Assembly: GCA_964488095.1 (NCBI GenBank)
Contig: CAZATP010000014.1
Coordinates: 6,553-70,552 of the forward strand
Source of the DNA: an uncultured Chryseobacterium sp.
GTDB lineage: Bacteria > Bacteroidota > Bacteroidia > UBA10329
Direction: 5' to 3'
DNA: 64,000 nt
The notes under the pieces are model-generated. The model searched no databases, was not told the DNA's origin, and worked only from the letters and a program-made list of their open reading frames with translations. Made by a program: the position numbers and the translations under genes. Positions 24,776 through 46,090 of this stretch are shown here, piece after piece. Within the stretch, counting starts at the first letter, position 1, and each line of letters starts with the position of its first letter.

Positions 24776-25114
24776 ATGGCACCCTACAAGGAAAAGGAAA
24801 TCACCAAGATGTATTGGACCATCGGTGAGGTGGCCACGATGTTCAATGTGAACACCTCGCTCATCCGTTTCTGGGAAAAGGAGTTTGACATCCTGCAACC
24901 GAAGAAGAACAAGAAAGGCAACCGTCTTTTCACGGAGAAGGACCTGGAGAATCTCAAGTTGATCCATCATCTGGTGAAAGAGCGAGGGTTCACCCTTGCA
25001 GGCGCCAAGAAGAAAATGACGGAAAACCGCACCGACACGGTGAACACCACCGAAGTGGTGGCCCGGCTCAAGGAGATCCGCGGGTTCCTTGTTGAACTTC
25101 GGGACAATCTATGA
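24776..25114 (+). CDS. MerR-family transcriptional regulator
   Basis: YWTIGEVATMFNVNTSLIRFWEKEF helix-turn-helix typical of MerR. Confidence 0.7.
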   Translation: MAPYKEKEITKMYWTIGEVATMFNVNTSLIRFWEKEFDILQPKKNKKGNRLFTEKDLENLKLIHHLVKERGFTLAGAKKKMTENRTDTVNTTEVVARLKEIRGFLVELRDNL

Positions 25115-29198: not shown

Positions 29199-29232
29199 GA
29201 GCGCAAAGGTAGTCCCCTTACCTTCGCCCGCC

Positions 29233-31407
29233 ATGCTCCGAATCACGGTAGCCCTCCTCGTGCTCTGCCAATTGGCCCACGCTCAACTTGCGATACGCAA
29301 CGGTGTGGGCATACCCACTCGGGACACCTTGCGCATACTGATCGTATTCGCAGAGATCGATTTCTCGCAGGGCCCATGCAATGGCAGTATCGTAGAGGAT
29401 TTCACTGGAGATTGGCCGAAAGACCGCGCTGGCAGAACACTTCCCCCAACATTCGCAGGCGATTTTCTGGATGCCACCATTGATGGGCGGAATCCAATGA
29501 GAGGATTCATCACGCGGTTCTACCATGAGGCATCGTTCGGACATTATGTGCTGCTGGGCGACCACATTCCTGAAGTGGTGAGCGTGCCGTGCAGCGAGGT
29601 GCAGAGCGGTAACCATGGGCTCGAACTCATCCTGAAACAACTGGCCGAATCGCGCCCAGGGTCGCCTACCCTTCACACTTCACGCGGCTTCCCTCTGGAA
29701 CATTTCGACCAATGGACCAACACAGGACAGGGCAAGGAGAAACTGAAAGAACCCGATGGCCTCATCGACCTGCTCTACATCGTTTGGAGGAACAACAATG
29801 TGCTCACTGGCAAAGGCACACGCGACCATGCAGGATTCGGGGTCACCACCTCCAAGGGCAGAGCTTTCAAGGACATGAAAGGAGTGGCCAACATGGCATC
29901 GTTCAATGTGAGTTCCAATCCCGACAAGGCCCAGCACATCACCATGGCAGAGCACCTGCATGGCATTTTTGGAGGCAATCATTGGCACTCGGCCGGAGGT
30001 CGCGGCATGCACACCTTCCTGATGCCGCCCGCATCGTATGGACTCACGGCCCAGTCGGGAGGAACCATGCTCGCTGCCAGCGGTTGGGACAGATGGATGA
30101 TGGACTGGCGGCCCGAAGGGAAGAAACACACCATCAGTGCACTGAACGAGCAACGGAAAGAAGTGAACACCGAACACCTCGCCCTCGGACAGGCCAGAGG
30201 AGAGCAGACCTTCATTCTCCGCGACCACATGAGTACGGGTGATGCCCTGCGCATCAAGCTTCCGTTCATCGATTGGAAAACGGACGGAGATGTGAAGAAT
30301 CAATATCTCTGGATAGAGAACAGGCAGATGACCGCATTCAGCGACCGCTATCTCGAGGCCGACTGCGCCAACAGCGATGATGGGCGTTTCCCTCGCGGCA
30401 CACCGGGCATCTATGCCTACATTCAGGTGGGCAAGGACCAATCGGAGGGCGATGCATCCATCTACAGCTCCAAGGCCTCGCATCCCAACGGACTTGCAAG
30501 CCCGTTCTTCCCGCTGCCTGCTGAAGGACGCTTCGACTTCCACTTTCGCACAGACCGATTGCAGGCAGGCAACTTCGGCATAGGCTGCAACTGGGGGATT
30601 GAGAATGTCCCCAAGGATATGGCCCGCAGCCGACCGAATCCGCTCTCCGGCCTCTCAGACCTCTATTGCCAAATGGACTACAACGAAGATGGCAAGCTGT
30701 ATTCGGGCGACAGAATCTATACTGGCCTCAGCAAGATGAGTGGCGACAGCGCAATCCACGACTACCACATGAACGGTGACTGGCTGGATGCTTTCTCATC
30801 GGCATCAGGGAAAATGGAGATGTCATTGAGCACCAACCCCGCACCGGTGCCAGTGGTCACCTACTCAAGCAACTTCGAATTCGGACAGTTCGGATTCAGG
30901 AACGGTGAGTTCCAAAGCCATGAGAACCGGGTGGTACACCTCAATGGCATCCGTCTGAAGTTTGAAGAACTGGCGAACGGTGAAATAAAAGTGCTGCTGC
31001 GATGGGATGATTTTGATGTGAGGAATGATGTGCGGTGGTGCGGTACCATCGTGCAGCACCCGCATCCATTTGACACGCAACTGCCGACTCTGAAACTTGC
31101 CCCGAGAAAGAAACTTCTTTTGGAAAGAGGGGACAGCCCCGAATTTCATGAGAGCCAAACAAAAGACAAGCACGGCAAATGGGCATTCACGGCCCCTACC
31201 TCCTACACCGTCACCAAAGGTTCCATAGTAGAATTGGGACCGCGAGCAAGAATCATCATCAACGATGACAGTCACCTCCTCTTCGAGGATAGTACAAAGC
31301 TCATCCTTGGCGAAAAGTCCACCATCGTGGTAGGCAAGAACGCCAGATTAAGCATCTCCTCAACAGAAATTCAATTCGGCAAAGGCGCCAGGATCATCCG
31401 AAAGTGA
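29233..31407 (+). CDS. Large secreted hypothetical protein (about 725 aa)
   Basis: Signal peptide MLRITVALLVLCQLAHAQ. The start is ambiguous (29113, 29197 or 29233). No confident family assignment, and no canonical HExxH. Confidence 0.5.
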   Translation: MLRITVALLVLCQLAHAQLAIRNGVGIPTRDTLRILIVFAEIDFSQGPCNGSIVEDFTGDWPKDRAGRTLPPTFAGDFLDATIDGRNPMRGFITRFYHEASFGHYVLLGDHIPEVVSVPCSEVQSGNHGLELILKQLAESRPGSPTLHTSRGFPLEHFDQWTNTGQGKEKLKEPDGLIDLLYIVWRNNNVLTGKGTRDHAGFGVTTSKGRAFKDMKGVANMASFNVSSNPDKAQHITMAEHLHGIFGGNHWHSAGGRGMHTFLMPPASYGLTAQSGGTMLAASGWDRWMMDWRPEGKKHTISALNEQRKEVNTEHLALGQARGEQTFILRDHMSTGDALRIKLPFIDWKTDGDVKNQYLWIENRQMTAFSDRYLEADCANSDDGRFPRGTPGIYAYIQVGKDQSEGDASIYSSKASHPNGLASPFFPLPAEGRFDFHFRTDRLQAGNFGIGCNWGIENVPKDMARSRPNPLSGLSDLYCQMDYNEDGKLYSGDRIYTGLSKMSGDSAIHDYHMNGDWLDAFSSASGKMEMSLSTNPAPVPVVTYSSNFEFGQFGFRNGEFQSHENRVVHLNGIRLKFEELANGEIKVLLRWDDFDVRNDVRWCGTIVQHPHPFDTQLPTLKLAPRKKLLLERGDSPEFHESQTKDKHGKWAFTAPTSYTVTKGSIVELGPRARIIINDDSHLLFEDSTKLILGEKSTIVVGKNARLSISSTEIQFGKGARIIRK

Positions 31408-31473: not shown

Positions 31474-31746
31474 ATGCGCAAGCTTATCGCCATCACCGTC
31501 TTCTTATCAGTATGCTGCACTTCTCCAGCATTGGCCCAAAGCCAGGCAACGAAAGCGCAGAAGGAGACAGAAAAGAAGCAGGCCGCTCTCAAGAAAGAGG
31601 AACGGAAGGCCATGGAGGCAGGATTGAAAGCGCACATGAAAGCGCAGGACAAGGAGACCAGAAAGCGGATGAAACGATCGAAGAAGAAGGCAGACAAGGG
31701 CAACAGGCCCAAGAGTTGGAAACAGAAATCGAAAAAACAGAAGTAG
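31474..31746 (+). CDS. Small secreted Lys/Glu-rich basic protein
   Basis: Signal peptide then a highly charged low-complexity KxE/KK tail, 90 aa in all. Confidence 0.4.
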   Translation: MRKLIAITVFLSVCCTSPALAQSQATKAQKETEKKQAALKKEERKAMEAGLKAHMKAQDKETRKRMKRSKKKADKGNRPKSWKQKSKKQK

Positions 31747-31808: not shown

Positions 31809-32255
31809 ATGGAAGAGTTGATATATCTGGCAGTGGCGGTCGGTTGGATGATCTTCAACGCCTTCAAGAAGTCTCAGGCGCAGAAGCCGAAAGAGATACC
31901 GGGTCAGCAGCGCAGGCCGGCACCTGAAGCGATGGAGACCGATGCTCCCATGACCATCGATGATATGATGCGCCAGCTGATGGGAGAAGAGCCGCGAGAG
32001 AAGCAACGCCCTGCCCCTTCAGCACCGAAGGCTGAACCGATTCAAGCACCCGTTCATGTGCACCGGCCATTGCAGCCAGTTGCTCCTCGCGTGTCCAGAC
32101 TTACCCCAAGAACATCGACCAGACGAGACCCATCTGTGAAAAGGGAGATCAATGAACCCATGCGACCGATAGAAGTAGAGGTTCTGGCCGATGAACGCTT
32201 CGACCTGAGAAATGCCATACGCTACAATGCGATACTCCAACGACCTTACGCTTAG
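31809..32255 (+). CDS. Membrane-anchored proline-rich protein (TonB-N-terminus-like)
   Basis: An N-terminal TM helix, then a Pro-rich spacer (RPAPEA, RPAPSAPKAEPIQAP) and a short C-terminal domain. Confidence 0.4.
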   Translation: MEELIYLAVAVGWMIFNAFKKSQAQKPKEIPGQQRRPAPEAMETDAPMTIDDMMRQLMGEEPREKQRPAPSAPKAEPIQAPVHVHRPLQPVAPRVSRLTPRTSTRRDPSVKREINEPMRPIEVEVLADERFDLRNAIRYNAILQRPYA

Positions 32256-32358: not shown

Positions 32359-35300
32359 ATGATGAGAAGACTCCTACTACTTGCTACGATCTCTCTGTTC
32401 TCAGGGGCTGTTGCACACGCACAGATCGGCACGGGAACCCTTCAAGGGACCCTTACCGATGAGAACACGGGTGAGACCATCCCATTCGCCAACGTGGTGG
32501 TCATGCAGTCCGGACAACAGGTCACCGGAGCATCGACCGACTTTGACGGAAAGTACCGTATCGCGGCTCTTAAGCCGGGTTCAGACTATACTGTTAAGGC
32601 CTCTGTTGTAGGCTATGGTGCTCAGGAGAAGACCGGTGTGAAGGTCAGTGCCGGTCAGATCACCTTCGTTGACTTCAAGTTGGGGGCAGGTATCAAACTC
32701 GGTGAGGTCACCATCATTGAGTATGAGGTGCCCCTCATCGAAAAAGACGGTGGGGCCAAGACTACCGTCACCGGCAGGGACATCGAGAAGATGCCCAGCC
32801 GTGGTGCTAACGCTGCTATTACCTCCGTTGCAGGTGTTCAGGATAATGATGGTGCCATCGGAAGCGTACGCGGTACACGTGAGGGCTCCACTGACACCTA
32901 CATTGACGGTGTGAAGGTCCGTGGCTCGTCCAGTCTTCCACAAGGTGCCTATGAACAGGTGACCGTTCTCACCGGTGGTGTTCCCGCACAGTTCGGTGAT
33001 GCGACCGGTGGTATCATCTCTGTGACAACCAAAGGTGCTTCGCGGAAAACGACAGGCAGCATTGAATTGTTGAGTTCAGGAGGTATCCGTCTCAGCGACA
33101 AGAACAACTATTTCCTCGACCCACAGGGCTACCATCTTATAGGAGCGAACATCTCAGGTCCGCTGATTAGCATCAAGGACAAGGCGGACCCGGAAGGGAA
33201 AGCCAAGCGTCCACTATTGGGATACTTTCTTGCTGGTGAGATCAACTACACTCAAGACCCACGGCCATCGGCCATCGGTCACTATTACGTGAACGATGAA
33301 AAATTGGCTGAACTTCAGGCAAATCCTATCATAAGGAACCCGAACGGAGGAAGTTTCCTTGCTTCTGAATTCGTTCGGACAAGTGACTTGGAATTCGATA
33401 GTCAGCGTAGAAATGTGCCCAGCCGTGGGGTTGTGGCCTCAGGCAACATTGACCTGTATACTACCCCGAACATCACATTCAAGGTCGGTGGCTCATTGGA
33501 CTTCAATGATCGCAGGCTTTACGACTACTCGAACTCTATGTTCAACTATCAGAATAACGGTGAGGAGATCAACAAGACTTGGAGGGTGTTCGGTCGCTTC
33601 ACCCAGCGTTTCAACAACGCAAAGCCCGAAGAAGGCAAGAAAGGCGGTGTGATCTCCAACGCATACTACAGCATTCAGGCCGACTATGAGCGCTTCACAC
33701 GCATCCGTCAGGACGCCCGACATGAGGACAACCTTTTCCGCTATGGATATGTGGGCAAGTTTGAGACATTGAAAGAGAAGACCTACGCATTCGGTATTGA
33801 CGAGGTGACCGGTCTTCCAGGGTTCCTTCAGGGTCCGGACCGCGATACAACTGTGCTCTTCACCGCTTCGGACATCAACCCACAACTTTCTGCCTACACG
33901 CAACAGTACTACAACCTCTATGATGACCCTACTGGCCGCTACGAGAATCTGACACAGATCAACCAGGACCGGGGTGCATTGCGGAATGGTGACCTTCCTT
34001 TGAACGTCTACAACATCTGGAGAAATACAGGCTACCCTTACAACGCCTACAACAAGCTGGATCAAAGTCAGTTCCGTGTATCCGCCACCGGTGCGTTCGA
34101 CCTCAAGAACCACAGCATTTCCCTTGGTTTCGAATATGAGCAGCGCAGTGACGCGTTCATCAGCTACACCCCTTACAACCTTTGGGAGCTTACCCGTCTG
34201 TACGCCAACAACCACATTTCGCAGCAGGACCGCACCAATCCTATCCTGCACTTTGATGCCAACGGCAACTATACTGATACTATCAGTTACAACCCGCTAT
34301 ACACGCCTGTGGACCCAAGCAATCCTCTTTTGGGCGGTGTGGGCCAGTCGTTCATCGACTATAACATGCGTGTTGCCTTGGGTCTGGACCCTGCTGGAAC
34401 AGACTGGTTGGACATCGACTCCTTCGACCCGTCCTTCTTCCAGACCTCTTGGTTCAGTGCGGACGAGCTTTTGAACAACGGTAACTACCGTGCTCTGTAC
34501 TACGGTTTCGACCACACTGGTCAGCGCCTTTCTGGGACTCCGACCTTTGAGGACTTCTTCACCGAGAAAGATCAATACGGACGCTTCACCCGTAAGGTGG
34601 CTCCATTCGAACCTATCTACATGTCCGGTTTCATTCAGGATGAATTCACCTTCAAGGACCTCATCTTCCGTGTCGGTGTGCGTGTGGACCGCTTCGATGC
34701 CAACCAGAAGGTGCTGAAAGACCCGTACTCACTGGTAGAGACCTTCAAAAAAGGCGATGTGAGTTCGCTGCCCGGTGGTATCGCAGTATCTCACCCCAGC
34801 AACATTGCTGATGATGCTGTTGTCTACGTGAATGATCGCACAGCTCCTACCGCTATCGTAGGCTACCGTGAAGGTGATACTTGGTATAATGCTCAGGGTG
34901 TAATCATCACCGACCCATCTGCCCTTCGCACAGGCACTGGTATCGCTCCTTATCTGGTGAATGCCAACTACGGGACCGGTGGAGAGACGAGTGCTCCGAA
35001 AATCGAATCCGGAGCGTTCAAGGATTATGACCCTCAGGTCAACGTGATGCCACGTATCTCTTTCTCATTCCCTATCTCTGAGGACGCCTTGTTCTTTGCC
35101 AACTATGACGTGCTGACACAACGTCCACTTGACGGGAACAGACTGAGCCTGGTGGACTATCTGTTCATCGAGAACATCGGCAATGACATTGTGAACAACC
35201 CTGACCTTCGCCCTGAGACCACAATTGAATACGCGATCGGTTTCAAACAGAAGCTCAGCAAGCGTTCGGCCATTGAACTGAACGGTTTCTATCGTGAGAT

Positions 35301-36126
35301 GCGCGACCAGATCACAGTGTTCCGCGTGAATGAGGCTTACCCAAGAACCTATCTTACGTTCCGCAACCTTGACTTCGGAACAGTGAAGGGTCTCACGCTG
35401 TCCTATGATCTCCGCAGGACCAACAATATCCAACTGCGTGTGTCCTACACCCTGCAATTCGCAGATGGTACCGGCTCGAACTCGACCACCAGCCAGAACC
35501 TGATCAATGCCGGTTTCCCGAACCTCCGTGTGACACAGCCACTCGACTTCGACCAGCGTCACAACATCGTAGTCAGTGCAGACTACCGTTTCGGTGGAGG
35601 CAAGAATTACACCGGTCCAAAGACTACGACCAAGAATGGAAAGGTCATCAACTGGTTTGAGAACTTCGGGATTTTCGCCATCATACGTGCCGGCTCAGGA
35701 ACACCGTACTCTGCGCAAACGAATACCACTGCTGACGCTCTGATAAGTGGTGGTGCCTCAGGCTTCCTTGAAGGCTCCATCAATGGTTCGTCCAAGCCTT
35801 GGCAGTTCCGTATTGACGCGAGGATAGACCGTGACTTCACCATCAAGTGGAATAAAGGCTCAGAGGGCAAACCTGCCAAGACCTCTGTGCTCAATTTCTA
35901 CTTGGACCTTCAAAACCTCTTGAACACACAGAACGTGATCAGTGTGTACCGTGCCACTGGTAATGCTGACGATGATGGTTATCTGGCTGCCGCCCAGAGC
36001 CAGGTGGATATTGCCAATCAGACTAATGAACAATCATTCCGTGATCTGTATTCCGTGAAGGCCAACAACCCGGCCAACTTCTCCATTCCGAGGAGGTTCA
36101 GGGTCGGCCTCATGCTCAACTTCTAA
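32359..36126 (+). CDS. TonB-dependent-receptor-like outer-membrane barrel with N-terminal carboxypeptidase-regulatory-like domain (1255 aa)
   Basis: Signal peptide, a CarboxypepD_reg-like beta-sandwich (GTLQGTLTDENTGETIPFANVVV), a plug-like segment (GVQDNDGAIGSVRGTREGSTDTYIDGVKV) and a C-terminal aromatic barrel terminus (GLMLNF). Confidence 0.75.
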   Translation: MMRRLLLLATISLFSGAVAHAQIGTGTLQGTLTDENTGETIPFANVVVMQSGQQVTGASTDFDGKYRIAALKPGSDYTVKASVVGYGAQEKTGVKVSAGQITFVDFKLGAGIKLGEVTIIEYEVPLIEKDGGAKTTVTGRDIEKMPSRGANAAITSVAGVQDNDGAIGSVRGTREGSTDTYIDGVKVRGSSSLPQGAYEQVTVLTGGVPAQFGDATGGIISVTTKGASRKTTGSIELLSSGGIRLSDKNNYFLDPQGYHLIGANISGPLISIKDKADPEGKAKRPLLGYFLAGEINYTQDPRPSAIGHYYVNDEKLAELQANPIIRNPNGGSFLASEFVRTSDLEFDSQRRNVPSRGVVASGNIDLYTTPNITFKVGGSLDFNDRRLYDYSNSMFNYQNNGEEINKTWRVFGRFTQRFNNAKPEEGKKGGVISNAYYSIQADYERFTRIRQDARHEDNLFRYGYVGKFETLKEKTYAFGIDEVTGLPGFLQGPDRDTTVLFTASDINPQLSAYTQQYYNLYDDPTGRYENLTQINQDRGALRNGDLPLNVYNIWRNTGYPYNAYNKLDQSQFRVSATGAFDLKNHSISLGFEYEQRSDAFISYTPYNLWELTRLYANNHISQQDRTNPILHFDANGNYTDTISYNPLYTPVDPSNPLLGGVGQSFIDYNMRVALGLDPAGTDWLDIDSFDPSFFQTSWFSADELLNNGNYRALYYGFDHTGQRLSGTPTFEDFFTEKDQYGRFTRKVAPFEPIYMSGFIQDEFTFKDLIFRVGVRVDRFDANQKVLKDPYSLVETFKKGDVSSLPGGIAVSHPSNIADDAVVYVNDRTAPTAIVGYREGDTWYNAQGVIITDPSALRTGTGIAPYLVNANYGTGGETSAPKIESGAFKDYDPQVNVMPRISFSFPISEDALFFANYDVLTQRPLDGNRLSLVDYLFIENIGNDIVNNPDLRPETTIEYAIGFKQKLSKRSAIELNGFYREMRDQITVFRVNEAYPRTYLTFRNLDFGTVKGLTLSYDLRRTNNIQLRVSYTLQFADGTGSNSTTSQNLINAGFPNLRVTQPLDFDQRHNIVVSADYRFGGGKNYTGPKTTTKNGKVINWFENFGIFAIIRAGSGTPYSAQTNTTADALISGGASGFLEGSINGSSKPWQFRIDARIDRDFTIKWNKGSEGKPAKTSVLNFYLDLQNLLNTQNVISVYRATGNADDDGYLAAAQSQVDIANQTNEQSFRDLYSVKANNPANFSIPRRFRVGLMLNF

Positions 36127-36147
36127 TCTGGAACGATTAAAAAAGAA

Positions 36148-39100
36148 ATGGTCATGTCGAAACAAATGAGAATACTCGCAACAGCCTCGTTGGCCGTGCT
36201 TATCGCACTGCCTGCATTCGCTGAGAAGTCAAAGGGCATTGATGGGAAGAAGTCTGCGAAGGCCGCTGGTCCAAAGGACATAGCTGCGGAATGCGCACCG
36301 CCTTCCGCATCCATTGAACTTTCACTCAACAACGTGCGCGCCACCATTCACAGCGGTGGCGACATGTGGTGGGACCTTTTGGGCACGCCTCGCTATGAGG
36401 TCCCTAAGGGCGGTGGGGTGCATGCCCTTTTCGCTGGATCACTTTGGATGGGTGGAACGGACGTGAACAACCAGCTCAAGCTGGCCGCCATGCGTTTCCG
36501 TCAGGTAGGTTTCGACTATTGGCCCGGCCCACTGAGCACAATCACTGCGGAGATCGATCCTGAGACCTGTGCGGCCTACGACAAGTTCTTCAAGATCACG
36601 CGTCCGGAGGTGGATAAGTTCGTTGCATGGTATCTCTGCAAGACCGACCCTGAATGTGACGAGAGTGTTGACCACTCCGGTTATGTTATTCCACCCTCCA
36701 TTCTCAATTGGCCGGCACATGGCGACATCGGGATGGGTCAGGATTACAACCTTGCTCCATACTATGATGCTGACGGCAATGGAAGCTACAATCCCGAAGA
36801 CGGTGGTGACTATCCGTACTACGACCTGAATCCTACTGAATTTGACTGCCTGCGTGAGCGCTCGGTGAAACTTTTCGGTGACGAGACCCATTGGTGGGTC
36901 TTCAACGACAAGGGTAACATCCATACGGAGTCAGGCGGAACGGCCATCGGTATGGAGGTGCGTGGTCAGGCGTTCGCATTCTCGACCAATGACGAGATCA
37001 ACGACATGACGTTCTACAACTACGAACTCATCAACCGTGGATCATTCACCTTGGCCAACACCTATTTCGCACAATGGGTTGACCCTGACCTCGGTTTCGC
37101 TCAGGATGACTACGTAGGCTGTGATGTGCGCAGAGGTCTCGGGTATTGCTATAATGGTAGCCCGATTGATGGTACTGGTGGACCTCTTCAATACGGGGCC
37201 AACCCTCCGGCCGTTGGAGTTGACTTCTTCCAAGGTCCTTATCAGGACAATGATGGCAATGACAATCCGCTGTACACGAACTGTGAGGTTTCACAGGCGT
37301 TCACAGAAGGTGGAATTGTCTACGGTGGCATAGGTGTGGGTTATGGTGACGGCATTGTGGATAACGAGCGTTTCGGCATGAGACGCTTCGTTTACCACAA
37401 CAATGATGCTTCCGTGTTCGGAGACCCACAGACCGCTGCTGAGTACTATAACTACATGCGCGGTATCTGGAGGGACAACAACCCGATGTGCTATGGTGGC
37501 AATGGTCACCCGAACAGCGGTTGCAACGTAGGCGTACCCGCAGGATACATGTTCCCAGGTGATTCTGACCCTTGTGGTTGGGGTACGAGTGGTCAACCAC
37601 AGGCCCTTTGGACAGAACAGACCGCAGGAAACCTTCCCTTCGACCGGAGGTTCATGCAATCAGCAGGTCCTTTCACCTTGGAATCTGGAGCTGTGAACGA
37701 CCTCACTGTGGGTGTGGTTTGGGCAAGAGCCACCAACGCCAGCGACCCATACGCTTCTGTTCAGAAGCTCCGTTTGGTGGACGACAAGGCTCAGGCTCTG
37801 TTCGACAATTGCTTCGTGTTGATTGACGGACCGGATGCGCCAGACCTGAGCGTCATCGAACTGGACCGTGAGCTGGTGCTGTTGCTTTCCAACCCCGCCA
37901 CTTCCAACAACCGCAACGAGGATTACGCGCAGATTGACCCGTTCATCGTAAGCCCTGATGGAGAGACTTGGGACAATGTGTACCGTTTCGAGGGATACCA
38001 GATTTATCAATTGAAGAACCTCACCGTCTCTTCTTCTGATCTGCAGAATCCGGATGTGGCGAGATTGGTAGCACAGTGTGACATCAAGAACATTGACCCA
38101 CTGACCAACGCTCCCATTGCCCAGTTGATAAACTTCACTTTCTCGGAGGAGCTGAATGCGAGTGTACCCGTGGAAATGGTAAATGGATCGAACGAAGGTC
38201 TGAAGCACTCCTTCAGGGTAACTCAGGATCTTTTCGCGACTGGCGACCGTAGGCTTGTGAACCACAAGACCTACTACTACATGGCCGTGGCGTACTCCTA
38301 CAACAACTATAAGACCTACAACCAGAATGATCCTTTTGCCCTTGATGGTCAGAAGACCCCATATTTGGCCGGTCGTAAGAATGCCTCAGGCGGTGCTATT
38401 GCACCTGTTACTGGTATTCCTCACATTCTCGCCCCTGAACAGGCCGGTACGATTGTGAGCGTGAACTACGGTGATGGCCCCCGACTGACCCGCATCGAAG
38501 GCCGTGGAAACGGAGCCCGTGACCTCGTTCTGTCCCAGAAATCCTTGAATGACATCGTTACAAGCAACGAAGGACGTGTGAAAGAAATCACATACGACTT
38601 TGGCAAAGGCCCTGTTGAAATCAAGGTCATCGACCCGAAGAGAGTTCCTCTGGCCGATTTCGTTTTCCGCATGCTTGATACCATTACCCCGGGCAATCTC
38701 ACGGATGCCTACTGGTCATTGGAGTGTGTCGGTTCTGGTTGTCCAACGGTAAGTGGATCAACCACTGTTTATGCAAGCAAGCCAATCGGTCTTTCAAACG
38801 GTGATGAGAAACTTATTCCTGAGTGGGGTCTGTCGGTGTTCCTAACACAGACCATCGATCCGGGTGACGAGGCAGCAGGCATGGGTCTGATTGATTCTCG
38901 CATCAGTTTCTCAGGCACTAACTTCTGGCTCACCGGCATTCCGGATGTGGATGGTGTGAGTCCGTTCAACTGGATTCGTTCTGGTTCTGTCGCTCCCAAC
39001 GAGCCGCCCACCGGTGATGAGGACTATGGTGACCCTAATCAGGTGTTTGAGACCGTCCTTAACGGCACATGGGCACCCTACAAGTTGGCCAGCCATAAAG

Positions 39101-40188
39101 ATGATGTGATGTCGCCAACCTGGAGCCAATTCAAGGCCCTGAATGACCTTCGTAACCTTGCGGGCGTGGACATCATCATCACCTCCGACCGTAGCAAGTG
39201 GTCACGCTGCCCCGTATTCGAAGTGGCAGATGAGAGTGTGCCGCGTATCGGAAATGCACGGAGATTCAATCTGCGCATGAGTCCCTCAGTGGATCAGGAC
39301 GGTCGTCCGGACGGCTCCGGCACCAACGGCATGAGCTGGTTCCCAGGCTATGCGGTGAACGTAGAGACCGGTGAGCGCCTGAACATCGCATTCGGTGAGA
39401 GCTCTTGGCTCATTCAGGAGAACGGTGGCGACATGATCTGGAATCCGACCGGAAGTGTTCTTGACAACAATTTCAACCAAGCTACAGGTTTCCCGAACGT
39501 GCTGTTCGGTGGTGGTCACTACATCTATGTGTTCGGACATAACGGGGATAACCCCACCAATGATGTTCCTGCCTACGATGAAGGTGCGTTCATCTTCTCC
39601 AAACTGTCCGAGAACAACTACAACCCGTCAAATGCTGAGAAGCGCAGGGTATTCAAGGACTGCATGTGGGTAGGTCTTCCACTCTTGGCGGAAGGTGGTC
39701 GCCTGTTGGCGAGCGATGTTCAAGTTCAGGTGCGGGTCACCAAGCCATTCCGTTCTGACATGGCTGTCGGATGGACTGTTGCTCAGCCTGAGAATGACAA
39801 CCTACCTATGTACACCTTCAGCACAGGTGATTTCGCCACTGTTCGTGGTGACCTTACCACTGCGCAGAACGCTTTGGACATCATCCGTGCGGTTCCGAAC
39901 CCGTACTACGCCAACTCAGGTTACGAGCGCACGCAGCTGGACAACATCGTTAAGATTACTAACCTGCCAGATGTATGCACCATCCGCATCTATACTGTGA
40001 ACGGCATCCTCGTCAGAGAGATCAAAAAGGACTCCCCTATCACTTCGGTGGATTGGGACCTGAAGAACCACAAATCTGTGCCAGTGGCCAGTGGAGTATA
40101 TCTGATTCACATCGAGGCTCCGGGCATAGGTGAAAAGGTGATCAAGTGGTTTGGAACGGTACGCCAATTGGACCTCGATTCCTTCTGA
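36148..40188 (+). CDS. Large secreted protein with T9SS C-terminal sorting domain (1346 aa). Candidate PorU-like protein or a novel cargo
   Basis: Signal peptide and CTD-like C-terminus (VPNPYY...IRIYTVNGILVREI...SGVYLIHIEA...KVIKWFG). It lies 21 nt downstream of the TBDT-like gene and 32 nt upstream of the PorV-like gene. Confidence 0.6.
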   Translation: MVMSKQMRILATASLAVLIALPAFAEKSKGIDGKKSAKAAGPKDIAAECAPPSASIELSLNNVRATIHSGGDMWWDLLGTPRYEVPKGGGVHALFAGSLWMGGTDVNNQLKLAAMRFRQVGFDYWPGPLSTITAEIDPETCAAYDKFFKITRPEVDKFVAWYLCKTDPECDESVDHSGYVIPPSILNWPAHGDIGMGQDYNLAPYYDADGNGSYNPEDGGDYPYYDLNPTEFDCLRERSVKLFGDETHWWVFNDKGNIHTESGGTAIGMEVRGQAFAFSTNDEINDMTFYNYELINRGSFTLANTYFAQWVDPDLGFAQDDYVGCDVRRGLGYCYNGSPIDGTGGPLQYGANPPAVGVDFFQGPYQDNDGNDNPLYTNCEVSQAFTEGGIVYGGIGVGYGDGIVDNERFGMRRFVYHNNDASVFGDPQTAAEYYNYMRGIWRDNNPMCYGGNGHPNSGCNVGVPAGYMFPGDSDPCGWGTSGQPQALWTEQTAGNLPFDRRFMQSAGPFTLESGAVNDLTVGVVWARATNASDPYASVQKLRLVDDKAQALFDNCFVLIDGPDAPDLSVIELDRELVLLLSNPATSNNRNEDYAQIDPFIVSPDGETWDNVYRFEGYQIYQLKNLTVSSSDLQNPDVARLVAQCDIKNIDPLTNAPIAQLINFTFSEELNASVPVEMVNGSNEGLKHSFRVTQDLFATGDRRLVNHKTYYYMAVAYSYNNYKTYNQNDPFALDGQKTPYLAGRKNASGGAIAPVTGIPHILAPEQAGTIVSVNYGDGPRLTRIEGRGNGARDLVLSQKSLNDIVTSNEGRVKEITYDFGKGPVEIKVIDPKRVPLADFVFRMLDTITPGNLTDAYWSLECVGSGCPTVSGSTTVYASKPIGLSNGDEKLIPEWGLSVFLTQTIDPGDEAAGMGLIDSRISFSGTNFWLTGIPDVDGVSPFNWIRSGSVAPNEPPTGDEDYGDPNQVFETVLNGTWAPYKLASHKDDVMSPTWSQFKALNDLRNLAGVDIIITSDRSKWSRCPVFEVADESVPRIGNARRFNLRMSPSVDQDGRPDGSGTNGMSWFPGYAVNVETGERLNIAFGESSWLIQENGGDMIWNPTGSVLDNNFNQATGFPNVLFGGGHYIYVFGHNGDNPTNDVPAYDEGAFIFSKLSENNYNPSNAEKRRVFKDCMWVGLPLLAEGGRLLASDVQVQVRVTKPFRSDMAVGWTVAQPENDNLPMYTFSTGDFATVRGDLTTAQNALDIIRAVPNPYYANSGYERTQLDNIVKITNLPDVCTIRIYTVNGILVREIKKDSPITSVDWDLKNHKSVPVASGVYLIHIEAPGIGEKVIKWFGTVRQLDLDSF

Positions 40189-40220
40189 CCCTTCGCAATT
40201 GACCAGTATCAAACACCAGT

Positions 40221-41327
40221 TTGAAGACGACTGAAATGAGAAAAGCTCTAGTAACATCAGTAATCACCCTTGCATCGGTCATGTCCATGCAGCCCACGAT
40301 GGCCGGTAACTCGGACCGTGCGGGTCAGGCTGGGGCCACGGAACTGCTCATCAATCCTTGGGCGCGTTCAAGTGGATTCGGCAGTGCCAACACCGCATCG
40401 GCCCGTGGTCTGGAGGCACAGTGGCTCAATGTGTCTGGCATGGCCTTCACCAAGAAGACAGAGGTGCTTTTCGCCAACACGCAATGGTTGGTGGGAAGCG
40501 GTGTGATGATCAATTCCTTCGGCCTGTCGCAGAAGATAGGTGAGGCCGGTGTGATCGGCATCAGCGTGATGAACATGAGTTTCGGGGAAATCGATATCAC
40601 CACCACCGAGATTCCCGATGGCGGTATCGGCACGTTCTCCCCGAACTATCTGAACATTGGCCTCTCTTATGCCAAGAGCTTCTCGAACAGCATCAATGGT
40701 GGTCTTACGGTGCGCGTCATCAACCAGAGCATCCAGAACCTGAGTGCCACAGGGGTCTCCTTCGATGCAGGTGTTTCATATACCACGCGTTTGGGCAGTC
40801 GTGAGAAAGAGAAGAACAAGGACAACTTCCAGTTCGGCATAGCACTGAAGAACGTGGGGCCACCGATGAACTTCAGTGGTGATGGTCTTGGAGTTCGAGG
40901 AAGTGTTCCCGGCAGCGACCGCAGCCTGACCCTCGAGTATCGCGCTCAGCAGTACGAGATGCCTTCATCCTTGCACATCGGTGTCACGTATCACTGGCGG
41001 AATGCCACCTTGGCTCACCAGGTGAGCGGTGCTCTCAACTTCACTTCGAACAGCTTCACCCGCGACCTGTTCAATTTCGGTCTCGAGTATTCATTCAAAG
41101 AGCTGTTCATGCTGCGTGGCGGATACATCCTTCAAATGGGATCGAGCGGTGCGGACAACAACATCGCCATCTCCGCACTCACCGGTCCTACAGCAGGTCT
41201 CACTGTAAACGTGCCTCTTGCAAAGAAGGACAGCGGCAAGGACAGCAAGCTCGGTGTGGATTACTCGTTCCGTGCCACCAACCCCTTCTCCGGGGTTCAC
41301 TCTGTCGGGGTGCGTTTCACGCTCTGA
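40221..41327 (+). CDS. PorV/PorQ-family (FadL-like) T9SS-associated outer-membrane beta-barrel
   Basis: Signal peptide and an N-terminal AGATELLINPWARSSGFGSA...AQWLNV block resembling the PorV A(x)FLxIxxDARxxGMG / WNPA motifs. Beta-strand periodicity and a C-terminal F-x-L. Confidence 0.55.
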   Translation: MKTTEMRKALVTSVITLASVMSMQPTMAGNSDRAGQAGATELLINPWARSSGFGSANTASARGLEAQWLNVSGMAFTKKTEVLFANTQWLVGSGVMINSFGLSQKIGEAGVIGISVMNMSFGEIDITTTEIPDGGIGTFSPNYLNIGLSYAKSFSNSINGGLTVRVINQSIQNLSATGVSFDAGVSYTTRLGSREKEKNKDNFQFGIALKNVGPPMNFSGDGLGVRGSVPGSDRSLTLEYRAQQYEMPSSLHIGVTYHWRNATLAHQVSGALNFTSNSFTRDLFNFGLEYSFKELFMLRGGYILQMGSSGADNNIAISALTGPTAGLTVNVPLAKKDSGKDSKLGVDYSFRATNPFSGVHSVGVRFTL

Positions 41328-42877: not shown

Positions 42878-43658
42878 GCCCGCTTCGCATTCCGGCCAAT
42901 AGGATCCCTGTGGCAACAGCAGCATTGAGCGACTCGACCCGGCCACCACCAAAGTCAGGGATTCTCACTTCACAGTCACACACTTCCAGCACCTGGCCAC
43001 TCACTCCATGGGACTCGCTTCCGATGACAAGCACCGTTGGACCACTGATATGAAGACCACTCATGGGTTCACCATTTAATGTGGCGCACAGCACCCTGTA
43101 GCCTTGACTGCGTGCCTCATGTAGCGCGGCCGTCAGGTCGGAAGAGATGATGGAAGCGTGAAAAAGCGCGCCCATGGCGCCTTGAACCACTTTGGGACCG
43201 AAGGCATCCACACTATCATGAGAACAGATGATCTGACGGACACCGAACCAACAGGCTGTTCGGATGATGGTGCCCAGATTACCAGGGTCGCGGATGCCGT
43301 CAAGGGCAAGCACCACATCGTTCCAGACCGGCTTCCTTGCCTGCGGGATTCTCGCGATGGCCAAGGTGACATTCGGAGTGGTGAGCAGCGACATGCGCTC
43401 CAGTTCCTTCATGGAAACAACCTCTGAACGGAAACTACCATGGAGCCCGTTCAGGAAGTTCACGTCCGTGGAATAGACGGTTTCGACTGTCAAAGGCGAC
43501 TCTAAGAGTTCGCTCACTACCTTCACGCCCTCAGCAATGAAACATCCCGAGGCTTGGCGTTCCTTTTTCTGCCCAAGAGACCTGACATACTGAATGTCTG
43601 CGCGTGAAATGGCCAATAGTTGGAGCGGTGTTTGTTCCGCTGCCGGAAGATGCGACAA
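42867..43658 (-). CDS. SpoU/TrmH-family (RlmB-like) RNA 2'-O-methyltransferase
   Basis: An N-terminal substrate-binding domain plus SPOUT motifs (LDGIRDPGNLGTIIRTA, SLNAAVATGILL). Confidence 0.75.
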   Translation of the reverse strand: MSHLPAAEQTPLQLLAISRADIQYVRSLGQKKERQASGCFIAEGVKVVSELLESPLTVETVYSTDVNFLNGLHGSFRSEVVSMKELERMSLLTTPNVTLAIARIPQARKPVWNDVVLALDGIRDPGNLGTIIRTACWFGVRQIICSHDSVDAFGPKVVQGAMGALFHASIISSDLTAALHEARSQGYRVLCATLNGEPMSGLHISGPTVLVIGSESHGVSGQVLEVCDCEVRIPDFGGGRVESLNAAVATGILLAGMRSGHER

Positions 43659-43690
43659 CGGTGGCTAAAGGTCTGAATTTCTCCCTTCTG

Positions 43691-46090
43691 ATGGTCTTGA
43701 GAAGGCATGTGCCTAAACTGATCGTGGCCTTGGCCCTTGCGGTGTCTGCGTGCTCTCCTACGCGGAAATTACAGGAAGGTGAGTATCTGCTCGTTAAGAA
43801 CAGAGTTGAGAATGACAGCAAGGTGGTGACCAAGAGTGAGCTGGAGGGATTCATCCGCCAGAAACCTAACCGCAAGATTCTGGGGTTTTACCGTTTCCAC
43901 CTTCAGGTTTTCAACCTGGTGAATGAGGAGAAGCTGGAGGTCGCCTCGCAACGTATTGCCGACAAGAATGATGCACGGAACCGCAGAAGGGCCGCCAAAG
44001 GCAAGGACCCCAAGGAAAGAAGAAGGTCTTTCTGGGAATGGCTACGTGACATTGGCGAGGAACCTGTACTCTATGATGCCCTGACAGCCAAGAAGTCGGC
44101 TGAGCAACTGCAGACCTACCTCAACGGCAAGGGCCACTTCAACGCCATTGTTTCCGACTCAGTGATACTGGACATTGCCAAGAAAAAGGCACGGGCTGTT
44201 TACGTTGTGAAATCGGGCACACCCTATCGCGTGCGCGATTTCAAGTATGAGGTCACAGACCCACGGCTTTCCATACTTGTGCGCCCAGAGACCGGGAAGT
44301 CCAGAATAATGCGGGCAGGGATGAACTACGATGTGGAGCGCTTTCAGAAGGAGCGCGAACGCATTGACCGCCTGCTCAAGAGCAACGGATACTATGCCTT
44401 CGATGACAGCTATGTGCGCTTCAGGGTGGATTCTGCACTGGGTTCTCATGAGGTGAACATGACCCTGTATCTGGAGGACCCAGTGAGAAAGGACACAATG
44501 CTTGTCCGTACAGAAGGCCATCATACCTATACCATCCGCAACATCTATGTGCTCACAGATTACGACCCGAAGCGCCCTTTCGCATCGAAAGACACGCTTT
44601 TCTACAACGGCATCTATTTCATCACCAACGGTAAATTCAAGCACCGGCCGGACATGCTTTATGACAAGCTGTTCTTCTCGGAAGGCGACCTCTTCCGCGT
44701 ACGCAGGTCAGAGCTCACCTACCAGTATCTCTCTGGTCTGCGGGCCTTCCGACTGATTAACGTGGCTTTCAGGGATGCGATTGAGCCCGATGGTGACCAT
44801 GTGCTGGACTGCTACATTCAGTTGTCCCCTGCCCTGCGTCAATCCTATTCCATAGAGGCGCAAGGCACCAACACGGAAGGCAACCTCGGAATATCGGCAT
44901 CGCTCAGCTACCAGAACAGGAACCTGTTCCGCGGGGCGGAGATACTTGAACTGAAGCTGCGGGGCGGTATCGAGACCCAGGTGGTGTCCACGAACGTTGC
45001 CGACCGCCCCATTTGGGACGGACTCCCCTTCAACACGTTGGAGTTCAGTCCAGAACTGAGTCTGACCATCCCCAAGTTCATTGCACCGTTCAGAACCGAC
45101 AAGCTTTTGCGCTACGGCAACCCGAGGAGCATCATTTCCCTGTCCTACAACTTCCAACAACGACCCGACTATACCCGTTCCATCTTCACAGGACGGTTCG
45201 GCTATCACTGGTCGCAGGGGCTGAACCTTCAACATAGGTTGAATCCGCTGGAGGTGAACTTCGTGAACATCTATAACGAGGATCCCCAATTCATCCAGCG
45301 CATTGAGAACCTGCGTGACGAGTTGCTGCGGAACAGCTATCGTCCCCACTTGACCACCACCACCAACTACACGCTTACCTACTCGGGCCAGAAGCTGAAC
45401 AAGCGGGAGAATTTCTCTTTCCTGAGGCTCAGACTGGAAAGTTCGGGCAATCTGCTGCGCGGAATCTTTGCAGCCGCTCAGGCCGACAAGGACACTACTG
45501 GCAGCTATCGCGTCTTCAACATTCCCTTCGCCCAGTATCTCAAGTATGAGATCGATTTCAGGCGTTATCTCATTCCCAATGCCCACAGCCAAGTGGTGCT
45601 GAGAGCCTATCATGGCATGGCCTATCCGCTGCTGAACCTTGGGGCGGTGCCTTTCGAGAGCAGCTTCTTTGCCGGTGGTGCCAACGGCATCCGGGCATGG
45701 CCGGTGCGCTCCCTTGGTCCAGGCTCCCTGCCCGATTCACTGAACCTGCGTGACCAGTTCGCAGACATAAAGTTGGAGTTCAACATCGAATACCGCTTCG
45801 ACATCTACCGGTGGTTCAAAGGGGCCGTGTTCGCAGATGCCGGCAACATCTGGCTGGTGAAACCCGACAAGGACCGACCGAACAGCAACTTCGACTTCTC
45901 CCGTTTCTACAAGGAGATCGCTTTGGGAATGGGGGTCGGACTGCGACTGGACTTCAATTTCTTTGTCATCCGACTGGATGTGGCCACTCCGTTTCACGAC
46001 CCCAGTTTCGATGAGGGCGACCGCTGGGTAGTGGAGCGTTTCAAATGGTCTGATGTCAACCTGAACATCGGTATCGGCTATCCATTCTGA
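43691..46090 (+). CDS. Omp85-family outer-membrane protein assembly factor (BamA/TamA-like)
   Basis: POTRA-like N-terminal repeats and a C-terminal bacterial-surface-antigen barrel ending in GIGYPF. The start is atg at 43691. Confidence 0.7.
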   Translation: MVLRRHVPKLIVALALAVSACSPTRKLQEGEYLLVKNRVENDSKVVTKSELEGFIRQKPNRKILGFYRFHLQVFNLVNEEKLEVASQRIADKNDARNRRRAAKGKDPKERRRSFWEWLRDIGEEPVLYDALTAKKSAEQLQTYLNGKGHFNAIVSDSVILDIAKKKARAVYVVKSGTPYRVRDFKYEVTDPRLSILVRPETGKSRIMRAGMNYDVERFQKERERIDRLLKSNGYYAFDDSYVRFRVDSALGSHEVNMTLYLEDPVRKDTMLVRTEGHHTYTIRNIYVLTDYDPKRPFASKDTLFYNGIYFITNGKFKHRPDMLYDKLFFSEGDLFRVRRSELTYQYLSGLRAFRLINVAFRDAIEPDGDHVLDCYIQLSPALRQSYSIEAQGTNTEGNLGISASLSYQNRNLFRGAEILELKLRGGIETQVVSTNVADRPIWDGLPFNTLEFSPELSLTIPKFIAPFRTDKLLRYGNPRSIISLSYNFQQRPDYTRSIFTGRFGYHWSQGLNLQHRLNPLEVNFVNIYNEDPQFIQRIENLRDELLRNSYRPHLTTTTNYTLTYSGQKLNKRENFSFLRLRLESSGNLLRGIFAAAQADKDTTGSYRVFNIPFAQYLKYEIDFRRYLIPNAHSQVVLRAYHGMAYPLLNLGAVPFESSFFAGGANGIRAWPVRSLGPGSLPDSLNLRDQFADIKLEFNIEYRFDIYRWFKGAVFADAGNIWLVKPDKDRPNSNFDFSRFYKEIALGMGVGLRLDFNFFVIRLDVATPFHDPSFDEGDRWVVERFKWSDVNLNIGIGYPF

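What the first reader, a model, noticed from the sequence alone, without database searches (positions are those of the whole stretch)
32359..41327. Three-gene envelope module: giant TonB-dependent-receptor-like barrel, 1346-aa T9SS-CTD protein and PorV/PorQ-family barrel
The three genes are packed with 21- and 32-nt spacers, so they are probably co-transcribed. The middle protein has a signal peptide and a clear T9SS C-terminal sorting domain. The downstream 368-aa barrel has the N-terminal motif pattern of the PorV/PorQ (LptO) family, which shuttles CTD-bearing cargo. The upstream 1255-aa protein combines a CarboxypepD_reg-like domain with a plug and a TonB-dependent-receptor-like barrel but has no SusD partner. 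One reading is a divergent porU-porV locus (T9SS sortase plus shuttle), given the size and the adjacency. I could not see a gingipain-like His/Cys dyad by eye in the 1346-aa protein. The other reading is an uncharacterised dedicated cargo/shuttle/outer-membrane-gate trio. Both make this the core T9SS-related locus of the window.
Basis: partly seen in the sequence, partly recalled or inferred. Interest (0 to 1): 0.65.

Follow-up and report, generated by a model that had tools for sequence, protein, structure and literature searches.

The report
Conserved transporter, surface protein, PorV-like anchor module
Three tightly packed outer-membrane genes (a TonB-dependent transporter, a 1,340-residue secreted protein from a very large family with no known domains, and a private PorV-like barrel) form a module kept in the same order across many Bacteroidota, and no paper found here describes it.

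Summary
The 1255-aa protein is a genuine TonB-dependent transporter (TBDT). It has a CarboxypepD_reg N-terminal extension and a plug, and its AF2 model matches PhuR, Cir and BtuB (Foldseek E 5.5e-26). It has no SusD partner. The 363-aa protein belongs to the PorV/PorQ family (NF033709, 151 bits against a cutoff of 90) but is not an equivalog of PorV, PorQ or PorV2. The 1340-aa middle protein has a signal peptide. Its C-terminal domain scores best on the tail of the PorZ model (E 1.6e-9) and falls just below the generic type-A cutoff. Its 1200-aa core matches no Pfam, NCBIfam or PDB entry, although the model is confident (pLDDT 87). The family is large: 7518 clusters at 50% identity and at least 596 genome loci. 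The order TBDT, middle protein, PorV-like, greA, HIT is kept across Flavobacteriales and Bacteroidales, down to 41% identity. Two small conserved genes upstream were missed. The PorU-PorV reading is rejected: no C25 hit and no gingipain-like match among the 50 listed PDB fold hits. My best reading, which is inferred, is that the T9SS delivers the middle protein, that the private barrel holds it at the surface by a retained CTD, and that it serves the transporter. This is a new variant of known kinds, of moderate to high interest.

The parts
31474..31746 (+). Small secreted, very basic protein (90 aa; signal peptide, K/R-rich, motif ...QDKETRKRMK...). It is conserved upstream of the module.
   Evidence: Sequence read. 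phmmer finds positional homologs upstream of the TBDT gene in 24 related loci. All of them lie in the 1-2 kb before the TBDT gene (only + strand ORFs were searched).
31809..32255 (+). Small membrane protein (148 aa). It has an N-terminal TM helix, a variable charged or Pro-rich linker and a conserved C-terminal motif FDLR(K/N)A(V/I)IY..IL.RPY. It ends 103 nt before the TBDT gene.
   Evidence: Translation and alignment. An HMM finds it in 26 of 57 trio loci, and every hit lies directly upstream of the TBDT gene. It has no meaningful Pfam family.
32359..36126 (+). TonB-dependent transporter, 1255 aa. It has a signal peptide ending AHA|Q, an N-terminal extension, a plug and a large barrel with long loop insertions.
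   Evidence: Pfam hits. The AF2 model has pLDDT 85.3 and pTM 0.82. Foldseek against PDB gives 186 hits at E<=1e-3; the top hit is PhuR 8the_A at 5.5e-26, and BtuB reaches TM (target) 0.78. Many homologs carry PF00593.
32437..32682 (+). CarboxypepD_reg N-terminal extension (aa 27-108) of the TBDT.
   Evidence: PF13620 at 63 bits (cutoff 32.3) and PF13715 at 47.9 bits.
32752..33015 (+). Plug domain (aa 132-219). It is preceded by a TonB-box-like strand, GEVTIIEYEVPLIEKD.
   Evidence: PF07715 at 33.5 bits (cutoff 23.9). The motif is read and is conserved as ExEVxxYxVPLIxKD in the consensus of 64 homologs.
36148..40188 (+). Middle protein, 1346 aa (1340 aa from the ATG at 36166). It has a signal peptide (..LPAFA|EK), a roughly 1200-aa beta-rich core from a family with no model, and a C-terminal T9SS-type domain.
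   Evidence: No Pfam hit and no PDB sequence hit. The AF2 core model has pLDDT 87.1. Foldseek gives only weak beta-sandwich matches. The family has 7518 clusters at 50% identity.
39844..40185 (+). C-terminal sorting domain (aa 1233-1346). It is type-A-like, closest to the PorZ CTD, and carries a conserved extra tail KWFGxxRxxDLxxF.
   Evidence: The PorZ model tail (positions 660-740 of 757) matches at E 1.6e-9, and TIGR04183 gives 19.4 bits against a cutoff of 23. Across the family, 21 of 22 and 20 of 22 homologs hit these two models. PorZ structure 5m11 matches at E 0.095. The tail is conserved in both trio and solo copies.
40236..41327 (+). PorV/PorQ-family outer-membrane barrel, 363 aa (the longest ORF starts at the TTG at 40221).
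   Evidence: NF033709 scores 151 bits (cutoff 90) over the full length. PorV scores 78 against 250, PorQ 51.7 against 220 and PorV2 31.5 against 325. Pfam PorV scores 32.5 bits. PDB PorV 6h3i_F matches at E 1.8e-4.

Best explanation
SHOWN. This is a vertically inherited, operon-like outer-membrane module of Bacteroidota. It holds a real TonB-dependent transporter of the NTE (Oar-type) architecture with no SusD. Next comes a Sec-exported 1,340-aa beta-rich protein from a very large family that has no domain model. Its last ~110 residues are a T9SS C-terminal domain most like that of PorZ. Last comes a private paralogue of the PorV/PorQ barrel family. Two small conserved envelope proteins usually precede these three genes.

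INFERRED, step 1. The T9SS carries the big protein across the outer membrane by means of its CTD.

INFERRED, step 2. The CTD is not cut off. The neighbouring PorV-like barrel captures it, as PorQ holds PorZ, PorV holds PorU, and PorP/SprF hold type-B cargo. The protein is therefore tethered non-covalently at the cell surface.

INFERRED, step 3. The tethered protein sits beside or over the long extracellular loops of the transporter. It works as the transporter's extracellular capture or processing partner. In that role it replaces the lipoprotein partners (SusD, BtuG, XusB, HmuY) that other Bacteroidota TBDTs use. TonB then powers uptake of the captured ligand, possibly a glycan. The ligand is unknown.
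For: Component identities rest. Co-inheritance is strong: the order TBDT, middle protein, PorV-like, greA, HIT recurs in most of the 80 loci fetched, across Flavobacteriales, Bacteroidales and other Bacteroidia. Of 67 evaluable copies, 49 have both partners, with median gaps of 21 and 25 nt. The order persists in a homolog at 41% identity.

The CTD scores higher on the PorZ tail (36.7 bits, E 1.6e-9) than on the generic type-A model (19.4 bits), and 21 of 22 homologs hit the PorZ tail. Two ordinary CTD proteins in the same window score 45-46 bits on the generic model and show no PorZ hit at E<=1e-4.

Published precedent exists for cognate barrels holding uncleaved CTDs. PorZ-PorQ and PorU-PorV are reviewed in PMC10202324. 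Type-B cargo held by PorP/SprF is shown in PMC9143113. A FadL-like barrel anchors the surface protein BamH (PMC12578637).

The organism has a T9SS, because three proteins in the window carry strong type-A CTDs. The transporter has about 400 extra residues in loop insertions and no SusD-like neighbour. The only fold signal in the big protein is a beta-supersandwich like the N-terminal domains of GH94, GH116 and GH65 enzymes, plus FN3-like domains.
Against: No physical interaction was tested, and no multimer prediction was available. Retention of the CTD is argued only from resemblance and adjacency. The fold matches are weak (E>=1.1e-3, TM 0.1-0.16) and give no ligand. No riboswitch or regulator hints at a substrate.

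Solo copies of the big protein, without transporter or barrel neighbours, make up 12 of 67 copies, so the protein can be encoded apart from both. They scatter through the tree as repeated duplicates and keep the same CTD tail. A few loci (L054, L061) have the TBDT and the big protein but no PorV-like gene.

Synteny that extends to greA and HIT shows an old, frozen gene order. That weakens adjacency as proof of a functional link.
Confidence: 0.5

Rival explanations
1. The big protein is an ordinary T9SS cargo, such as an enzyme or adhesin, that is released or attached by the usual route. The neighbouring barrel is only its private shuttle to or from the translocon. The transporter is either unrelated in function or merely takes up the products.
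For: PorV is a shuttle for type-A cargo (PMC10202324). NCBI names many homologs plain 'T9SS type A sorting domain-containing protein'. Solo copies exist without a barrel or transporter next to them. The highly conserved acidic and His residues at 1346-numbering 246-365 and 1046-1085 could form an active site.
Against: The CTD resembles the retained PorZ CTD more than the generic one. Ordinary cargo genes do not carry private PorV paralogues. The three genes stay together at short spacing across orders.
Confidence: 0.25
2. The trio is an accessory machine of the T9SS or of envelope biogenesis rather than an uptake system. It could be a second attachment-type complex, with a PorZ-like CTD protein on a PorQ-like barrel. 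Alternatively the plugged barrel could act as a gate or exporter, as proposed for PorF or shown for Oar.
For: The CTD is closest to PorZ. A TBDR-like protein, PorF (PG0534), is needed for gingipain secretion, and PorV of C. hutchinsonii co-purifies with a TBDR similar to PorF (PMC8564354). The Oar-class TBDT, with the same PF13620 NTE plus plug architecture, is required for secretion of PopC (PMC6434023). Conservation approaches that of the housekeeping neighbours: 44-50% identity across orders for the module against 55-70% for greA and HIT. The module sits in a core-genome neighbourhood that includes TamL, RuvC, AlaS and MutS.
Against: No component reaches any T9SS equivalog cutoff (PorZ, PorQ, PorV, PorU). 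None of the named hits comes from a well-studied T9SS model organism, and no T9SS paper found here mentions such a trio. The T9SS therefore apparently works without it. The transporter's nearest structural matches are importers.
Confidence: 0.2
3. It is a divergent porU-porV locus: the T9SS sortase next to its shuttle.
For: The big protein is about the size of flavobacterial PorU (from my own knowledge, not checked here). It carries a CTD and sits immediately upstream of a PorV-family gene. Three of 22 homologs touch the PorU model weakly.
Against: This protein has no Peptidase_C25 hit and no PorU model hit at E<=1. The AF2 model is nearly all beta, and none of the 50 listed PDB matches is a gingipain, caspase or PorU. 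The barrel scores 78 bits against 250 on the PorV equivalog model. A plugged TBDT is not part of known porU-porV loci.
Confidence: 0.02
4. The adjacency is a frozen accident. The three outer-membrane genes are unrelated and merely sit in an old, stable stretch of the chromosome next to greA.
For: The unrelated genes greA and HIT are conserved in the same order, so gene order here is conservative in general.
Against: The gaps are operon-like, with medians of 21 and 25 nt. A CTD protein next to a barrel from a CTD-binding family is a functional match, not a random pair. The small upstream genes occur only at this position.
Confidence: 0.03

Closest known systems
PorZ-PorQ and PorU-PorV pairs of the T9SS attachment complex (P. 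gingivalis)
   Same: A T9SS-exported protein keeps its CTD and is held at the surface by a PorV/PorQ-family barrel (PMC10202324). Here the CTD matches the PorZ tail best, and the barrel belongs to the PorV/PorQ family.
   Different: The core of the big protein has no similarity to PorZ or PorU. The barrel fails the PorV and PorQ equivalog cutoffs. The pair is joined to a plugged TBDT. Retention of the CTD is not shown here.
Type-B CTD cargo with neighbouring PorP/SprF-like barrels (SprB-SprF, PG1035-PorP)
   Same: A cargo gene lies next to the gene for its own anchoring barrel (PMC9143113).
   Different: The CTD here is type-A-like, with no hit to a type-B CTD model, and the barrel has no hit to a PorP/SprF model at E<=1.
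Bacteroidota TBDTs with surface partners (SusC-SusD, BtuB-BtuG, XusA-XusB)
   Same: A TBDT with an N-terminal extension is encoded next to a large extracellular protein. XusA appears among the structural matches (rank 31).
   Different: The partner is not a lipoprotein and not SusD-like. It would be delivered by the T9SS and tethered through a separate barrel. The TBDT shows no hit to a SusC/RagA-type model among the NCBIfam hits, and classical importers lead the fold matches.
Oar-class TBDTs (M. xanthus Oar)
   Same: The architecture is the same: a PF13620 CarboxypepD_reg extension, a plug with a TonB box and a barrel, with no SusD (PMC6434023).
   Different: Oar is from a different phylum and has no T9SS or PorV-like partner. 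Its secretion role is not known to apply here.
PorF (PG0534) and CHU_1606, TBDR-like proteins linked to the T9SS
   Same: They are TBDR-like outer-membrane proteins functionally or physically linked to the T9SS and PorV (PMC8564354).
   Different: PG0534 reportedly lacks a plug. Sequence relatedness to this TBDT was not tested, and PorF is not known to be encoded in such a trio.

Membership tests
PorU (T9SS sortase, peptidase C25) | Match to the PorU equivalog model NF033707 or to Pfam Peptidase_C25 | tested here: not met
   The window protein has no hit at E<=1. Only 3 of 22 homologs hit NF033707 weakly, with best E 0.0029.
PorU (T9SS sortase, peptidase C25) | Gingipain or caspase-like alpha/beta catalytic fold | tested here: not met
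PorV/PorQ family (NF033709) | Full-length match above the curated cutoff of 90 bits | tested here: met
   151 bits; residues 38-367 match profile positions 3-325 of 326. Pfam PorV scores 32.5 bits against 27.
PorV proper (NF033710), PorQ (NF033711) and PorV2 (NF052325) | Equivalog cutoffs of 250, 220 and 325 bits | tested here: not met
   The scores are 78, 51.7 and 31.5 bits. The protein is a distinct paralogue.
PorP/SprF family | Match to a PorP/SprF model | tested here: not met
   No such family appears among the hits at E<=1.
T9SS type-A CTD (TIGR04183 / PF18962) | Score above the cutoff (23 bits / 27 bits) | tested here: inconclusive
   The window protein scores 19.4 bits (E 7.6e-4) and has no Pfam hit. 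Twenty of 22 homologs hit TIGR04183 (best E 5.1e-5) and 21 of 22 hit the PorZ CTD region. NCBI names several homologs type-A CTD proteins.
T9SS type-B CTD | Match to a type-B CTD model | tested here: not met
   No hit at E<=1 in NCBIfam.
TonB-dependent transporter | Plug domain | tested here: met
   PF07715 scores 33.5 bits against a cutoff of 23.9.
TonB-dependent transporter | Plugged beta-barrel fold | tested here: met
   The AF2 model has pTM 0.82. Foldseek gives 186 PDB hits at E<=1e-3, and every one of the 50 listed is a TBDT; the top E is 5.5e-26 and TM (target) reaches 0.78. PF00593 is present in many homologs. The exact strand number could not be counted from the DSSP string.
TonB-dependent transporter | TonB box and dependence on TonB | not testable with these tools
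   A conserved strand ExEVxxYxVPLIxKD lies between the NTE and the plug, where SusC-type TonB boxes lie. This is a reading by eye only.
SusC/SusD pair | An adjacent SusD-family lipoprotein and membership of the SusC/RagA family | tested here: not met
   No neighbour has a SusD-like Pfam hit, and no SusC/RagA-type model appears among the NCBIfam hits.
Oar-class TBDT | PF13620 NTE, plug and barrel, with no STN domain | tested here: met
   Architecture. The class is defined in PMC6434023. A secretion role is not testable here.

The most novel reading that the evidence does not exclude
This would be a previously unrecognised class of TonB-dependent transport system. Its extracellular partner is not a lipoprotein. 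It is a giant protein delivered by the T9SS and docked through a private PorV paralogue by a permanently retained CTD. That would couple the T9SS physically to TonB-dependent transport. Its near-housekeeping conservation and fixed place in the core genome of several Bacteroidota orders would point to a basic envelope or nutrition function. The two small upstream proteins, one basic and secreted and one an inner-membrane tether with a conserved C-terminal motif, would be further parts of the machine.
Probability: 0.3. Interest if true: 0.75.

Novelty: new variant of a known kind. Interest (0 to 1): 0.55.

Why it matters
The middle protein belongs to one of the larger protein families that still has no domain model: 7518 clusters at 50% identity, seen in at least 596 genome loci. 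It is about 50% identical across orders, yet nothing is known about it.

Its fixed pairing with a PorV-family barrel extends the 'cognate barrel holds the CTD' idea from T9SS machine parts (PorZ, PorU) and type-B cargo to a type-A-like cargo. Its pairing with a SusD-less TBDT suggests a new way in which Bacteroidota equip transporters with surface partners. The carriers are mostly uncultured freshwater, marine and anaerobic-digester Bacteroidota (Crocinitomicaceae, Cryomorphaceae, Vicingaceae, Lentimicrobiaceae). The module may therefore matter for how these abundant organisms feed or build their envelope.

Tried and rejected
PorU-PorV reading. Rejected on HMM and fold evidence.

Type-B CTD and PorP route. 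No model hits.

SusC/SusD PUL reading. No SusD-like neighbour, and no CAZyme or other characterised Pfam domain in the adjacent genes.

Sequence search of PDB with the middle protein. The single sequence found nothing, and the profile found only the PorZ CTD at E 0.095 plus stomatin noise.

Pfam on 22 homologs. Hits fell only in the CTD region.

Riboswitch or other RNA upstream as a ligand clue. None found.

Sigma-70 promoter and terminator scan inside the cluster. Nothing above the shuffled expectation, and the scan does not cover Bacteroidota promoters.

CTD difference between trio-linked and solo copies. None found; both have the same tail.

Solo copies as a separate clade. They are not; they are scattered duplicates.

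Literature. Six searches found no description of this trio.

Exact look-up of the 1346-aa form. It failed because public gene calls start at the later ATG.
Full report
OBSERVATION. The window holds three same-strand ORFs exactly where reported: 32359-36126 (1255 aa), 36148-40188 (1346 aa) and 40221-41327 (368 aa). The gaps are 21 and 32 nt. Identical public contigs call the second gene from the ATG at 36166 (1340 aa) and the third from the ATG at 40236 (363 aa). The gaps are then 39 and 47 nt, still operon-like. All three begin with signal-peptide-like N-termini..GAVAHA|QIG..LPAFA|EKS and ..QPTMA|GNS. None has a lipobox cysteine (read directly).

THE TRANSPORTER. Pfam finds CarboxypepD_reg (63 bits), CarbopepD_reg_2 (47.9 bits) and Plug (33.5 bits). 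NCBIfam gives only weak, partial hits to TBDT barrel models. I predicted residues 120-1255 from an alignment of 64 homologs (pLDDT 85.3, pTM 0.82). Foldseek against PDB returned 186 hits at E<=1e-3, and all 50 listed are TonB-dependent transporters. They are led by PhuR (5.5e-26), Cir, PfeA, PirA, PqqU, FoxA and BtuB, and TM normalised to the target reaches 0.78. No SusC-type structure appears by name in the list; the only Bacteroides entry is XusA. The protein is 350-500 residues longer than these transporters, and the extra length lies in long insertions between barrel strands. A conserved strand ExEVxxYxVPLIxKD lies between the N-terminal extension and the plug, where TonB boxes lie (read by eye). 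There is no SusD-like neighbour. The architecture is that of the 'Oar class' of TBDTs (PMC6434023).

THE BARREL. The 363-aa protein matches the NCBIfam PorV/PorQ family model end to end (151 bits, cutoff 90). It fails the equivalog models for PorV (78 against 250), PorQ (51.7 against 220) and PorV2 (31.5 against 325). No PorP/SprF model appears among its hits. F. johnsoniae PorV (6h3i_F) is its only meaningful PDB sequence match (E 1.8e-4). It is a distinct paralogue within the family.

THE MIDDLE PROTEIN. It has no Pfam hit at E<=1 and no PDB sequence hit. NCBIfam hits only the C-terminus: the tail of the PorZ model (positions 660-740 of 757, E 1.6e-9) and the generic type-A CTD model below its cutoff (19.4 bits against 23). 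Across 22 homologs, 21 hit the PorZ tail and 20 hit TIGR04183. Pfam sees only FlgD_ig or Por_Secre_tail in the same region, and nothing in the 1200-aa core. A profile search of PDB finds only the PorZ structure's CTD (5m11, E 0.095). Two ordinary CTD proteins in the same window score 45-46 bits on the generic model and show no PorZ hit at E<=1e-4. This CTD is therefore a particular subtype. It also carries a conserved extra tail, KWFGxxRxxDLxxF.

The core (aa 46-1241) gave a confident model with 74 homologs (pLDDT 87.1, secondary structure by DSSP).
- Residues 1-510 form a large beta sandwich with a helical insert and long loops rich in Asp, Asn and Gly.
- Two further beta domains follow.
- The last domain is mixed alpha/beta.

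Foldseek found no PDB match below E 1e-3. The best matches are the beta-supersandwich-containing enzymes GH94, GH116, GH65 and GH15 (TM 0.10-0.16). BFVD gave only FN3-type matches. None of the 50 listed PDB matches is a gingipain, caspase or PorU. The most conserved stretches are 1346-numbering 246-365, 486-565 and 1046-1085. They hold many invariant Asp, Glu, His, Trp and Cys residues, which suggests a binding or active site. That is inference.

HOW COMMON AND HOW LINKED.
- The word-indexed search scored 6849 relatives among its 8000 candidates. The best 120 are at least 49-50% identical and about 1,300-1,400 aa long when full length.
- The exhaustive search of 50%-identity representatives found 7518 clusters at E<=1e-3 and 2353 at E<=1e-30.
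- In one-genome-per-species GTDB contigs, 596 of 600 pattern matches encode a relative.
- The 80 loci fetched are nearly all Bacteroidota MAGs: Flavobacteriales (Crocinitomicaceae, Cryomorphaceae, Parvicellaceae), Bacteroidales (Lentimicrobiaceae) and other Bacteroidia. A Vicingaceae genome also carries copies.
- In these loci the order TBDT, middle protein, PorV-like, greA, HIT is the rule.
- Of 67 copies with enough flank, 49 have both partners by the ORF-based count, and 6 more have one partner. tblastn shows the second partner in four of those six. Twelve have neither. The median gaps are 21 and 25 nt.
- A member at 41% identity still has the full order.
- The partners are conserved at 44-50% across orders, against 55-70% for greA and HIT.
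- The solo copies are scattered through the tree. Several lie nearest the trio copy of the same locus or MAG, so they are repeated duplicates of the linked gene.
- Genomes with a solo copy also carry the TBDT partner elsewhere. P0355 lies on the same 5.9-Mb contig as P0107.

MISSED PARTS. Two small genes upstream belong to the conserved neighbourhood. The 148-aa ORF at 31809-32255 has an N-terminal TM helix, a variable linker and a conserved C-terminal motif FDLRKAVIYSEILxRPY. An HMM of it hits 26 of 57 trio loci, always directly upstream of the TBDT gene and nowhere else. It has no Pfam family. The 90-aa ORF at 31474-31746 encodes a secreted, very basic protein with the motif TRKRMK. It recurs in 24 loci in the same upstream position. 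The 764-aa protein further upstream is conserved only in near relatives.

CONTEXT. The flanking genes are housekeeping: alaS, mutS, greA, a HIT-family gene, ruvC, a SpoU methylase, TamL, PNPase, DeoC and SppA. No canonical porU, porV, porQ or porZ lies in the window. Three other proteins carry strong type-A CTDs, so the organism has a T9SS. No riboswitch lies upstream.

INTERPRETATION. The PorU-PorV reading fails on every test that could be run. The identities of the parts and their co-inheritance are solid. The mechanism is inferred. The CTD implies export by the T9SS. Its resemblance to the CTD of PorZ, together with a private PorV/PorQ-family barrel encoded 30-50 nt downstream, fits the documented pattern in which cognate barrels hold uncleaved CTDs and so anchor the protein. 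That pattern is known for PorZ-PorQ and PorU-PorV (PMC10202324) and for type-B cargo on PorP/SprF (PMC9143113). The plugged TBDT with oversized loops and no lipoprotein partner suggests that the tethered protein serves as its extracellular partner.

The rivals remain open. The protein may be ordinary cargo with a private shuttle. Or the trio may be an accessory T9SS or envelope machine, given the links of PorF and Oar-type TBDTs to secretion (PMC8564354; PMC6434023).

Six literature searches found no description of this trio. That covers only open-access papers and preprints.

VERDICT. This is a new variant of known kinds: a T9SS cargo with a cognate barrel, joined to a TBDT. Interest is 0.55.

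Noticed in passing
window 31809-32255 (+): A 148-aa protein with an N-terminal TM helix, a variable linker and a conserved C-terminal motif FDLRKAVIY..IL.RPY. In related loci it is found only directly upstream of the TBDT gene (26 of 57 by HMM). It has no known family.
   Followed up: yes
window 31474-31746 (+): A 90-aa secreted, extremely basic protein with the motif QDKETRKRMK. Positional homologs lie upstream of the module in 24 related loci. Low-complexity bias cannot be fully excluded.
   Followed up: partly
window 29113-31407 (+): A 764-aa protein, probably secreted (an internal start MLRITVALLVLCQLAHAQ looks like the true one). It has no Pfam or NCBIfam match and is conserved upstream of the module only in near relatives (L085, L041, L010).
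   Followed up: partly
L083 10001-14038; L084 10001-14002; L086 8001-16403; L025 11403-15449: Solo and tandem paralogues of the big protein occur without transporter or barrel neighbours. One sits next to a divergently oriented TonB_C gene (L084), and one pair is in tandem (L086). They are scattered duplicates and keep the same CTD tail.
   Followed up: yes
window 59921-61651 (-) and 58196-59908 (-): Two adjacent T9SS type-A CTD proteins. The first has an agmatine-deiminase-like domain (66.9 bits) plus a CTD. That arrangement recalls the secreted peptidylarginine deiminase of P. gingivalis (from memory, not tested).
   Followed up: no
window 27197-27676 (+): A small 159-aa protein that is little more than a type-A CTD (Por_Secre_tail, 41.6 bits).
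   Followed up: no
window 43604-46090 (+): TamL, the Bacteroidota lipoprotein form of TamA (NF052279, 744.9 bits). It lies 2 kb downstream of the module, on the far side of greA, HIT, ruvC and a SpoU methylase.
   Followed up: no
window 25109-26674 (-): A 521-aa protein with a sub-threshold full-length match to the BT2802 family (190 bits against a cutoff of 550) and no Pfam domain.
   Followed up: no
window 3360-4889 (+): An outer-membrane protein that combines a beta-barrel region (DUF6089/OMP_b-brl), a thrombospondin type-3 repeat and a C-terminal OmpA domain.
   Followed up: no
L085 18344-19704: In one related MAG chromosome (OZ260106.1) the gliding and T9SS genes gldB and gldC lie about 7 kb downstream of the trio. 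This is not seen in the window.
   Followed up: no
window 12054-12126 and 12193-12277 (+): Two tRNA genes, the only Rfam matches in the window.
   Followed up: no
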